This document shows positions 6,001-9,000 of a DNA stretch of 13,943 nucleotides, in pieces (positions within the stretch are counted from its first letter, which is position 1; each line of letters starts with the position of its first letter). The stretch lies in the UHGV virus genome UHGV-0368963. One strand, 5' to 3'. The position numbers are program-made. The DNA comes from a virus.

Positions 6001-9000
6001 ATTCCGTAAACGTGCGTTTCTCTTCCACGTCGATCTCGCCAAACATCCCTTCGGCGTATTACGACCAGGCCGCCTCCACCTCATCGACAAAACTTTTTGC
6101 CGCAGTCTCCCGCATCCCCAGCCAGCGCCAGTTCGGACGGTAGCTGATCAGAAACATATGCCCGACAATATGATCCTTATGCAGGGCCACCGCATTGGCC
6201 GCTATCCCGTTATTGCGCACCAGATCATCTGCCCGGGCATTCCCCAGACGCAACGCAGGCAGCAGGGCTGCATCGGCACTCTGCGCCGGTGGCAACCACT
6301 CCGCCATTTGCCCGCCAAATCCTGCACCGCCCCCGTTGTAGCTGAGACTCTCACGAAGCGGAACGCCGTTCACATCAATCAGGACAGGCGTTCGTTTCAT
6401 AACCTCACTCCCAGCGGACGACGGCGACGCCGGGTTGTCCCCAGTACCGACTCCGCATCATTGATCGCCCGGTTAAGCTCATCCAGAGAAGCCGCCGTAT
6501 ATTCAATTCTGCGACCATCTTTCTGGACAGACACCACCCGTTTACCGGTTAATAAATCAAGGCGCGCCTGACGCAGCGCCTGCAGTTCAGCGACTGTAAC
6601 CATTCACTCCTCCGGACAGCTTCGCTGCCAGTTCTTTCAGGGTTGGCCGGGTCGTCTCTTCTTCCCGGGATTTTGCCAGTACAGCCAGATCAAGCTGCCA
6701 GCGTTGCACGGACACACGTAATGCCGCGTAGGCATACACCAGGCAGTCCAGCGCTTCGTTACGCCGCTTTTTGTTATCCCACAGCAGACGCATCTTTCCT
6801 TTTTCCCACTTCTCCACAAGCTCTTCCGCTACCAGTTGCTGCGCCTCTGTCTGCGAAAAAATCTCCGGATCATCAGGAAAACGGATGGCATACGACGTGG
6901 CTTCATCCGCAGGCGTGGGATCGGCTTTCATACGGGCATAGAGAATTTCTTTTGCGGTGTCCGTCCCCACTTCACACAGATACACGCCCCGCTGATTGCG
7001 GGTTTTCGGCATGGTGATCACCGGCTTGCCATAGACAGACGCGCCCTTTACCGGCAGCACCCGGAAAACACCGTGTTTTTTTGATCTCTGATAAACAATT
7101 TCACCATCGATTCCCCCGGTGTCCCAGCAGACACGGGAAATGGTCATTTCGGTGCCATCCGCATGGCGGTATTTTTTGTTGATCGCAGCATCCACACGTA
7201 ACAGCGTCTCTTCCTCATCGGGACGCCCCATAATGATGATTTTATCCACCAGAAAGGCTTCCTCTCCCGGTGCCCATCCCCAGACATACATCTCAAAACG
7301 GTTTCGCTGCGAGTCAATGCCCGCCGTCAGATAAACCACCCGGGAAGGCACCGCAGCCGTGTAACGCACAACCTTATCCATCAGTACCTGGTGATCGAGT
7401 TTTTCGCCCACGGCCTCTTCCCAGGTCTCGCCCAGCGTGGTGTTCACAAAGGTTTTCAGGCCGTTGGGATCTTTCAGTGCATCCAGCCAGTCATAGACAA
7501 TCTGTACCCAGGTGGTGAACGGACTGTACGCCGTCCAGATATGGAACGTGATGGAGCGCGGCGGCGGAATTTCATCACCCCGGGCGCTGAAAAACGTCAG
7601 ACCGTCACGGGTCCACATGCCCGTGTTTTCACAGATCCACCGCCCGTTGCTCTGGTCCAGTTCAGACTTATGGATCACGCAGCCATGATGTTCACAGAGG
7701 TAGAAAACACTTTCGGGGCTGTCCTTCTCCCATTTAAGCCCAAAAGGCGTGGACTCATCGCCAAATTTCAGATACTGCGCCTCCCCACAGTGCGGGCAGG
7801 GCACATAAAAACGCATAAAATGCGCCGACTCGTTAGCGGCTTTTTCGATCTGGCAGGTGCCTTTGATTTTAGGCGTCGAGCCGCGAATGGATTTTGGCCA
7901 CACCGACCCCTCAATACGCTTATCCCCCAGCAGGGTTGGCGAGCCCTCTTTTTCGACATCCGGCTCGAACGAGGAAAGTTCGTCATAGCAGACCACGTCC
8001 ACGGATTTTTCACGGTAGTTTTTGGCGGCAGCGCCGCCCAGGCACCAGAAACCGACGCCCGATGAAAAGCGTTTCAGCGTGAGAGTATTGTCACGATGTT
8101 TACGACCCAGCCATGGGGAAAGGTCTTTCAGGCATGGCACGTTCCGAATCGTCGCCTCCACGTGAGGCTTCATAAAATCTTCAGCGGCAGAATCCGTGGG
8201 CTGAAAAAGCAGACTGTTTCGGGATTTATGCTCAATAAAATACCCGACCACCCCCAGCAACATCTTTGTATAGCCAACACGGGCAGATTTAATCAGGTTA
8301 ACCGTGCGAACCTGGTCGTTACCCATACAGTTCATAATGGCGATCTGGAATGGCAGCGTTTTCCATTCTCCCTCACCATATGAAGATTCTTTAGGCAGAT
8401 AATAATTTTGATCAGCCCATTCAACTGCCGTCATTGGTACAACCCTGACCAGAGGCTGCAGCGCAACCGAAACGGCAGCCATCATATTATTCAGTTGTTG
8501 CTCTGATATATTCATCGAGTAAATCCGGTAATTTATCCCCTGCCCGCGCACACTGATTTGCCCCCTTAGCAATAAGGGTTTTCAGATGGTCAAGATGGCG
8601 CGGTGTTAAATCAGAAAACTGTCGCTGCATGGATAAAGGGATGGAATCAAGCGTACTGGATAACGCCATTGCCAGCTTACTGAGGGCAAAAATACAGAAC
8701 CCGGTGTCAATAAGTTTTCCTTTTGACACCTCATTTTTTAACTGCTGTGTAACAGCCTGTTCTGCTGTCAGTTCCCATCTGGCAATAAGCAATTTCTCCT
8801 CATAGTCGTCTTCGCTATCGCCATCAGGCACATCGTTTTTACTTCTCCTCAGATACGATATGTAAAAATCGCGCCAGGCATCCAGATCCAGTTGCCCTCG
8901 CTTATTCGATATCGGGGCACCCGGCAATTTCTGCAATCTGCGAAGCTGGCGATCGGTCAGACTTAAATGCCTGGCAACTTCAGTCTGCGTAGCCACTCCT

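What the first reader, a model, noticed from the sequence alone, without database searches (positions are those of the whole stretch)
6044..6061. In-frame ochre codon splits the portal gene B
Both portal fragments are in one frame and align colinearly with lambda gpB; a single TAA (6061..6059) sits where lambda has Glu (GAA), consistent with a one-base G-to-T nonsense change. Without suppression this should abolish head assembly, so the element is probably a defective prophage even though the rest of the morphogenetic operon looks intact. Retention of intact neighbours suggests a recent event, a sequencing error, or strain-specific suppression.
Basis: seen in the sequence. Interest (0 to 1): 0.6.

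Follow-up and report, generated by a model that had tools for sequence, protein, structure and literature searches.

The report
Nonsense-mutated portal gene in E. coli prophage
A single G-to-T change has put a stop codon a fifth of the way into the head-portal gene of a lambda/phage-21-like prophage of E. coli; the change is real and inherited (seen in about twenty independent samples), and it is an ordinary case of a prophage gene being knocked out.

Summary
On the minus strand, TAA at 6061..6059 is codon 114 of a 530-codon lambda-family portal gene (4808..6400). It splits the gene into a 113-aa and a 412-aa ORF in one frame. The nearest intact alleles (2 nt different) and phage 21 have GAA there; lambda itself has GAG (Glu117), not GAA.

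It is not a sequencing error. The exact fragments occur, with the TAA, in roughly 20 independent isolate assemblies and gut metagenomes. None of 2951 copies in 5426 complete E. coli genomes, no deposited phage, and no IMG/VR or JGI contig carries it.

The TAA-bearing head modules form a tight clade (at most 5 SNPs in 8.5 kb). Their flanks are recombined, and 7 of their 8 internal SNPs are nonsynonymous. I found no suppressor tRNA, and the stop context is UAAU. The stop lies inside the first wing segment, so neither fragment is a complete portal.

Best reading: a recent, lineage-specific knockout of the portal, leaving a prophage that cannot build its own heads but is otherwise intact. It is inherited vertically and may be rescuable in trans by co-resident lambdoid prophages. 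This is ordinary prophage decay and of low interest.

The parts
6059..6061 (-). In-frame ochre codon TAA, codon 114 of the portal gene; GAA (Glu) in the nearest intact alleles and in phage 21, GAG (Glu117) in lambda
4808..6400 (-). Whole portal gene (530 codons, phage 21 gene 4 / lambda B type), interrupted once; a pseudogene in this allele
6059..6400 (-). N-terminal fragment ORF, 113 aa; PF05136 model positions 2-82; corresponds to less than half of the first wing segment of lambda gpB
4808..6046 (-). C-terminal fragment ORF, 412 aa from an internal ATG; PF05136 model positions 90-354; holds the rest of the wing plus stem, clip and crown
6044..6052 (-). GAAGGG followed directly by ATG, 12 nt after the stop: a possible restart site. 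It is ordinary coding sequence (E-G-M), identical in the intact alleles, and the spacing to the ATG is too short for a good Shine-Dalgarno site
   Evidence: sequence; translation consequences are inference
6397..6603 (-). gpW-type head-tail adaptor gene, intact, overlapping the portal start
6587..8515 (-). Terminase large subunit gene (642 aa), intact
8487..8996 (-). Terminase small subunit (Nu1-type) gene, intact
3313..4818 (-). S49 peptidase / scaffold gene (lambda C/Nu3 type), intact, overlapping the portal stop
122..3276 (-). Head decoration (D), major capsid (E), FI, FII, Z and U genes, all uninterrupted

Best explanation
This is a genuine, heritable GAA-to-TAA nonsense mutation at codon 114 of the portal gene of a phage-21/lambda-type prophage of Escherichia coli. 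Translation stops after 113 residues, inside the first segment of the wing domain, so no subunit carrying wing, stem, clip and crown together is made. Without a portal dodecamer the prophage cannot nucleate proper proheads, dock terminase or package DNA, so it cannot produce its own infectious particles. The mutation arose once, recently, on a haplotype otherwise identical to circulating intact alleles. It has since been passed on in the bacterial chromosome, with recombination swapping the flanking modules, while the remaining head genes drift without detectable purifying selection. Shown here: the mutation, its reality, its single origin and narrow distribution, and the intact neighbours. 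Inferred: loss of portal function and of virion production.
For: TAA against GAA is one of only 2 differences in 1593 nt from the intact alleles. The same TAA occurs in 9 distinct contigs shown, plus 5 similar ones, found through the exact 113-aa fragment (checked at the nucleotide level). It also occurs in 16 contigs carrying the exact 412-aa fragment. These come from NCBI isolates, ENA gut metagenomes and Logan runs of different projects. No 100% match to a 101-nt probe was found among 2951 places in 5426 complete E. coli genomes. There were no hits in IMG/VR or JGI metagenomes. All 27 deposited phages with this gene are at most 98.2% identical and are annotated as having a portal protein. 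TAA-bearing loci differ at no more than 5 sites in the 8.5-kb head block and share T at the stop, while the outgroup has G. Within that clade 7 of 8 SNPs are nonsynonymous, against 64 of 245 versus an E. albertii relative (Fisher p = 0.0007). In lambda gpB the wing is residues 24-249 and 368-452, the stem 250-279 and 343-367, the clip 280-342 and the crown 453-511 (PMC10721106), so the stop at lambda-equivalent residue 117 falls inside the wing. Every other packaging and head gene in the window is uninterrupted. Defective portal genes are already recorded in several lambdoid prophages of O157 Sakai (PMC2669165).
Against: No experiment shows that particles are not made. The excess of nonsynonymous SNPs could simply reflect very young polymorphisms not yet purged, or assembly errors. 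The flanks of the TAA head block are mosaic, which could also be read as continued phage-like exchange. Host genomes were not available, so an ochre suppressor elsewhere in the chromosome is not excluded.
Confidence: 0.82

Rival explanations
1. The portal defect is real but is compensated in trans. A co-resident lambdoid prophage with a compatible head module supplies portal protein, so this element can still be packaged and move, and behaves as a helper-dependent prophage.
For: E. coli genomes that carry this portal family have a median of 2 and up to 5 copies. In O157 Sakai, prophages with head defects are still packaged, which the authors attribute to complementation by other prophages (PMC2669165). 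The TAA head block sits between at least two different upstream modules and at least two tail-side variants with different breakpoints. Several Logan assemblies break the contig at the same 8510-nt block, as expected if the flanks are repeated in other prophages of the same genome.
Against: No TAA allele was found in virus-derived collections. The mosaic flanks are equally well explained by recombination between prophages inside one chromosome. The 8.5-kb contigs run uninterrupted through the portal, so those genomes hold no near-identical second copy. The nonsynonymous excess argues against ongoing selection on the head genes.
Confidence: 0.12
2. The two fragments form a working split portal. 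Ribosomes terminating at TAA restart at the ATG 12 nt downstream, and the 113-aa and 412-aa pieces co-assemble into the dodecamer.
For: An ATG preceded by GAAGGG lies 12 nt after the stop, and only 5 codons are lost, counting the Glu codon that became the stop. All neighbouring genes are intact, and the allele has persisted through several recombination events.
Against: The ATG and the GAAGGG are unchanged coding sequence that is also present in the intact alleles, so nothing has evolved to serve a restart. The purine run abuts the ATG, which is poor spacing (inference). The break falls inside the wing domain rather than between domains. The allele is confined to one tight clade and is absent from all deposited phages and 5426 complete genomes. 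Seven of the 8 clade SNPs are nonsynonymous, two of them in the portal.
Confidence: 0.03
3. The stop is read through, either by an ochre suppressor tRNA in the host or by leaky termination, giving enough full-length portal (only 12 copies are needed per head).
For: Few portal subunits are needed per virion. Host genomes could not be checked.
Against: There is no tRNA gene in the window or in six TAA-bearing loci of up to 19.6 kb. The stop is UAA followed by U, which to my knowledge (Poole, Brown and Tate 1995) is the most efficient termination signal in E. coli. Ochre suppressors are weak and costly in natural isolates (general knowledge).
Confidence: 0.02
4. Sequencing or assembly error: the real base is G.
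For: G-to-T is a common artefact type, and the closest complete genomes have G.
Against: The TAA is present in about 20 assemblies from different projects, platforms and sample types that also differ from one another at other sites and in their flanks.
Confidence: 0.01

Closest known systems
Phage 21 portal (gene 4; OL657228 / M81255) and lambda gpB (NP_040583; PDB 8k38 and others)
   Same: Same gene at the same place in the operon (Nu1-A-W-B-C-D-E-FI-FII-Z-U). The 2-kb stretch holding the gene is 97.3% identical in DNA to phage 21. The protein aligns with lambda gpB over residues 5-523 at E = 1e-214. Pfam PF05136 is matched.
   Different: Codon 114 is TAA instead of GAA (phage 21) or GAG (lambda Glu117), so the reading frame is cut inside the wing domain.
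Defective lambdoid prophages of E. coli O157 Sakai (Asadulghani et al. 2009, PMC2669165)
   Same: Lambdoid prophages whose morphogenetic genes, including the portal (scored defective in Sp3, Sp6, Sp9 and Sp12), carry inactivating lesions while much of the element stays intact. Defects can be complemented by co-resident prophages.
   Different: Here there is a single point nonsense mutation in an otherwise intact head module. The host lineage, inducibility and presence of helpers are unknown.
Laboratory amber mutants of lambda gene B (Bam), from my own knowledge of lambda genetics
   Same: A nonsense codon in the portal gene gives a conditional head-assembly defect in non-suppressing hosts.
   Different: Those are selected laboratory amber (UAG) alleles grown on suppressor strains. 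This is a natural ochre (UAA) allele fixed in a wild prophage clade.

Membership tests
Lambda-family phage portal protein (Pfam PF05136, Phage_portal_2) | Sequence match above the curated Pfam threshold | tested here: met
   The N-fragment scores 69.5 bits and the C-fragment 247.8 bits, against a cut-off of 32.9. Model positions 2-82 and 90-354 are colinear.
Lambda-family phage portal protein (Pfam PF05136, Phage_portal_2) | Full-length colinear alignment with a structurally solved member (lambda gpB) | tested here: met
   The intact allele, which differs by one codon, aligns over residues 5-523 with gpB residues 7-527, E = 1.2e-214.
Lambda-family phage portal protein (Pfam PF05136, Phage_portal_2) | Position in the operon between gpW and the S49 protease/scaffold gene, downstream of terminase | tested here: met
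   RefSeq annotation of the relatives and gene calls on TAA-bearing loci.
Lambda-family phage portal protein (Pfam PF05136, Phage_portal_2) | One uninterrupted reading frame encoding wing, stem, clip and crown in a single chain | tested here: not met
   TAA at codon 114. It is a member by descent, but as a pseudogene allele.
Point-mutated pseudogene in a decaying (defective) prophage | Inactivating change relative to intact orthologues | tested here: met
   GAA in L001, L002, L003, L014 and phage 21; TAA here.
Point-mutated pseudogene in a decaying (defective) prophage | The change is real and inherited, not an artefact | tested here: met
   About 20 independent assemblies carry it.
Point-mutated pseudogene in a decaying (defective) prophage | Relaxed selection on the gene and its functional partners after the lesion | tested here: inconclusive
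   Seven nonsynonymous to 1 synonymous SNP within the clade, against 64 to 181 versus a diverged relative, p = 0.0007. With only 8 SNPs, young polymorphisms show the same pattern.
Point-mutated pseudogene in a decaying (defective) prophage | No infectious particles produced by the element on its own | not testable with these tools
   Needs induction and plaque or transduction assays.
Programmed or suppressor-dependent stop-codon readthrough | Cognate suppressor tRNA encoded by the element | tested here: not met
   ARAGORN finds no tRNA in the window or in L004-L009. Host chromosomes were not available.
Programmed or suppressor-dependent stop-codon readthrough | The stop is conserved across diverged relatives | tested here: not met
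   It is confined to one clade with at most 5 SNPs in 8.5 kb. It is absent from 2951 places in complete E. coli genomes, from 27 phage records, and from IMG/VR and JGI contigs.
Programmed or suppressor-dependent stop-codon readthrough | Leaky stop context | tested here: not met
   The context is UAA-U. That this context is a strong terminator rests on published knowledge, not on a test made here.

The most novel reading that the evidence does not exclude
The portal-less prophage is not simply decaying. It may persist as a helper-dependent element packaged with the portal of a co-resident lambdoid prophage, or it may make a working two-piece portal by termination and restart at the ATG 12 nt downstream. 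Either would explain why the TAA head block is found between several different flanking modules with every other head gene intact.
Probability: 0.1. Interest if true: 0.45.

Novelty: already known. Interest (0 to 1): 0.12.

Why it matters
It matters little beyond annotation. The gene should be labelled a portal pseudogene with an internal stop, and the prophage should be scored as unable to form heads on its own. The allele is a clean, single-origin marker for one prophage clade or host lineage. It could serve as a natural test case for how fast a head module decays, or is rescued by neighbouring prophages, after loss of one essential gene.

Tried and rejected
1. Sequencing error was rejected after exact-fragment look-ups found the TAA in many independent assemblies.

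2. L010 looked like a TAA allele in a very different prophage (porin, Bor, TonB_C upstream). Its contig simply ends at ...TCGGA, so it is a GAA allele truncated by the contig end. The count of 35 contigs / 87 blocks for the 113-aa protein is therefore inflated by contig-end partials.

3. I first read the flanks as showing all four combinations of upstream and tail-side modules (a four-gamete argument). That was dropped because L009 covers only window positions 397 and above and cannot be typed on the tail side.

4. Suppressor tRNA: none in the window or in six flanking loci.

5. Exact-pattern scans of IMG/VR and JGI metagenome contigs for the TAA allele found nothing. The genome-contig scan with N at the variable base found only an E. 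albertii GAA allele.

6. Identifying the host lineage (sequence type, integration site) was not possible. All retrieved loci are prophage sequence, and look-ups are restricted to window proteins.

The intact allele was used instead.

Full report
**1. The observation**

On the minus strand the window reads ...GCC TGG TCG TAA TAC GCC GAA GGG ATG TTT..., with TAA at 6061..6059 and the next ATG at 6046..6044. The mechanical ORF list has a 113-aa ORF (6059..6400) and a 412-aa ORF (4808..6046) on the minus strand in the same frame. Translating 6400..4808 gives 530 codons with a single internal stop at codon 114.

Both pieces match Pfam PF05136 (lambda-family portal) well above threshold, at colinear model positions 2-82 and 90-354. 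They are two pieces of one gene.

**2. What the gene is and what the codon was**

The 2-kb region matches 3252 places in 2037 of 5426 complete E. coli genomes. There it is annotated as terminase large subunit, head-tail joining protein, phage portal protein and S49 peptidase.

- The best matches (strains 2013C-4991 and HCP5S3_I4) have an uninterrupted 1593-nt portal CDS, WP_053896161.1.
- That CDS differs from the window's gene at only two nucleotides: nt 340 (G there, T here, so GAA Glu against TAA) and a synonymous site at nt 1437.
- E. coli O103:H2 12009, E. albertii NBRC 107761 and phage 21 also have GAA.
- The head module is of the phage 21 type: the 2-kb stretch is 97.3% identical to phage 21, where the gene is annotated as the portal. 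Free phages induced from ECOR strains are up to 98.2% identical.
- The intact protein aligns with lambda gpB, which has solved structures (8k38 and others), over residues 5-523 at E = 1e-214. Glu lies opposite the stop.

The one-step G-to-T inference is right for the real relatives.

**3. Is it an error?**

No. An exact look-up of the 113-aa fragment returned contigs from three ENA assemblies (at least two of them labelled metagenome samples), three NCBI isolate assemblies and three Logan runs. In each, a 113-aa and a 412-aa portal ORF lie side by side. I confirmed TAA at the nucleotide level in all nine.

The exact 412-aa fragment can only be called as a gene if the frame is cut upstream. It is on 16 contigs, among them six samples that one search did not show. 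These sequences differ from one another at other sites and in their flanks, so they are not copies of one dataset.

One apparent carrier, L010, is a false positive. Its contig ends at ...TCGGA, which makes it a GAA allele cut by the contig end. This also means the cluster counts for the 113-aa protein include contig-end partials.

**4. How widespread is the allele?**

It is narrow.

- A 101-nt probe centred on the stop has no 100% match among 2951 places in 5426 complete E. coli genomes.
- Exact-pattern scans of IMG/VR and JGI metagenome contigs found nothing.
- None of 27 deposited phages with this gene is closer than 98.2%.
- The intact protein of the same haplotype is seen on 158 contigs, so the TAA form is a minority variant of a circulating allele.

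**5. Population structure of the TAA alleles**

Over the 8510-nt head block (Nu1 to FII), the window and nine TAA-bearing loci differ at only 8 sites, and any locus differs from the window at no more than 5. All share T at the stop, and the outgroup L001 has G. This indicates a single recent origin.

Seven of those 8 SNPs are nonsynonymous:

| Gene | Change |
|---|---|
| Nu1 | S128P |
| A | V89G |
| A | A121E |
| B | P171L |
| B | R383C |
| D | P92L |
| E | R156C |

The eighth SNP is synonymous, at Gly121 of B.

Against a diverged E. albertii relative, the same genes show 64 nonsynonymous to 181 synonymous differences (Fisher p = 0.0007). This fits loss of constraint on the whole head module once the portal is dead. 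With eight very young SNPs it is only suggestive.

Outside the head block the loci are mosaic:

- L004 and L009 replace everything upstream of window position 11774 with a different module (71-aa holin, no nanS esterase).
- L004 and L006 diverge below about window position 407, and L007 below about 260.
- L008 has a small patch of the other type at 335-353.

Several recombination events have therefore occurred around the TAA block. L009 cannot be typed on the tail side, so I do not make a four-gamete argument.

**6. Consequence for the protein**

In lambda gpB the domains are as follows (PMC10721106):

| Domain | Residues |
|---|---|
| Wing | 24-249 and 368-452 |
| Stem | 250-279 and 343-367 |
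| Clip | 280-342 |
| Crown | 453-511 |

The stop, at lambda-equivalent residue 117, lies in the middle of the first wing segment. The 113-aa product holds under half of that segment and nothing else. A restart product from Met119 would lack about 95 wing residues. Loss of portal function is inferred, not shown.

From established lambda biology (my knowledge), the portal dodecamer nucleates prohead assembly and is the docking site for terminase. A portal-null phage therefore packages no DNA.

**7. Rescue routes considered**

- *Suppression.* No tRNA gene is present in the window or in six TAA-bearing loci of up to 19.6 kb. The stop is UAA followed by U, which to my knowledge (Poole, Brown and Tate 1995) is the strongest termination signal in E. 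coli. Host chromosomes could not be examined.
- *Restart.* An ATG preceded by GAAGGG lies 12 nt downstream. This is unchanged coding sequence also found in the intact alleles, and the purine run abuts the ATG.
- *Trans-complementation.* Genomes with this portal family carry a median of 2 and up to 5 copies. In O157 Sakai, prophages scored defective in head or portal functions are still packaged, which the authors attribute to complementation by co-resident prophages (PMC2669165). Several Logan assemblies cut the contig at the same 8510-nt block, which suggests that the flanks are repeated in other prophages of those genomes. This is compatible with the main explanation and is the most plausible way the element could remain mobile.

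**8. Neighbours**

All other packaging and head genes in the window are uninterrupted and of the expected lengths: Nu1, A, W, C, D, E, FI, FII, Z and U. The lysis cassette, a Rha-family regulator gene and the nanS-type esterase gene are also uninterrupted, the esterase gene as far as the window end, which cuts it. This fits a recent lesion.

**9. Verdict**

The finding is real and correctly read, but it is ordinary. It is a lineage-specific nonsense allele of a phage-21-type portal gene, one more example of point-mutational decay of lambdoid prophages in E. coli. Sequencing error is excluded, and readthrough and a functional split portal are unlikely. Interest is low; the kind of event is already known.

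Noticed in passing
window 9018-9144: There are 12 substitutions within about 130 nt relative to the otherwise near-identical relative L001, directly upstream of the small-terminase start. In lambda this is where the cos/cosB region lies. It looks like a recombination boundary or a different cosB allele.
   Followed up: no
window 1-410 (gene U and the sequence beyond its stop): TAA-bearing relatives switch to a different tail-side sequence at different points: about 260 in L007, about 407 in L004 and L006, and a small patch at 335-353 in L008. This indicates several independent exchanges inside or next to gene U.
   Followed up: partly
window 11774 and upstream (holin / nanS side): L004 and L009 share the head block but replace everything upstream of this point with another late-region module (71-aa holin instead of 68-aa, no SASA/nanS esterase gene).
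   Followed up: partly
L001 (NZ_CP027355.1), equivalent to window 4546 and 1323: The closest complete-genome relative has an intact portal. It carries 1-nt deletions in the S49 peptidase gene and in FII, both annotated 'frameshifted', and an IS66-family element inserted upstream. These are either independent decay of the same prophage type or long-read indel errors.
   Followed up: no
L011-L013, L019 (Logan contigs; equal to window 667-9176): At least four independent runs assemble this region as a contig of exactly 8510 nt, and three of them (L011-L013) were shown to share the same ends. This suggests the same genome architecture, with the flanking lysis and tail sequences repeated in other prophages.
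   Followed up: no
L010 (GCA_031212185.2 contig end): A contig ending two bases into codon 114 yields a 'partial' protein identical to the true 113-aa nonsense product. Exact-sequence counts for short fragments are inflated by such contig-end truncations.
   Followed up: yes
window 12219-13940: The nanS-p-type esterase ORF (DUF1737/SASA/DUF6645, 616 aa in relatives) runs off the window end, so only 573 codons from an internal ATG are listed.
   Followed up: no
window 1843-8996 (head genes): Within the TAA clade, 7 of 8 SNPs in the head genes are nonsynonymous, several of them radical (P to L, R to C, V to G). This fits relaxed selection on the whole head module.
   Followed up: partly
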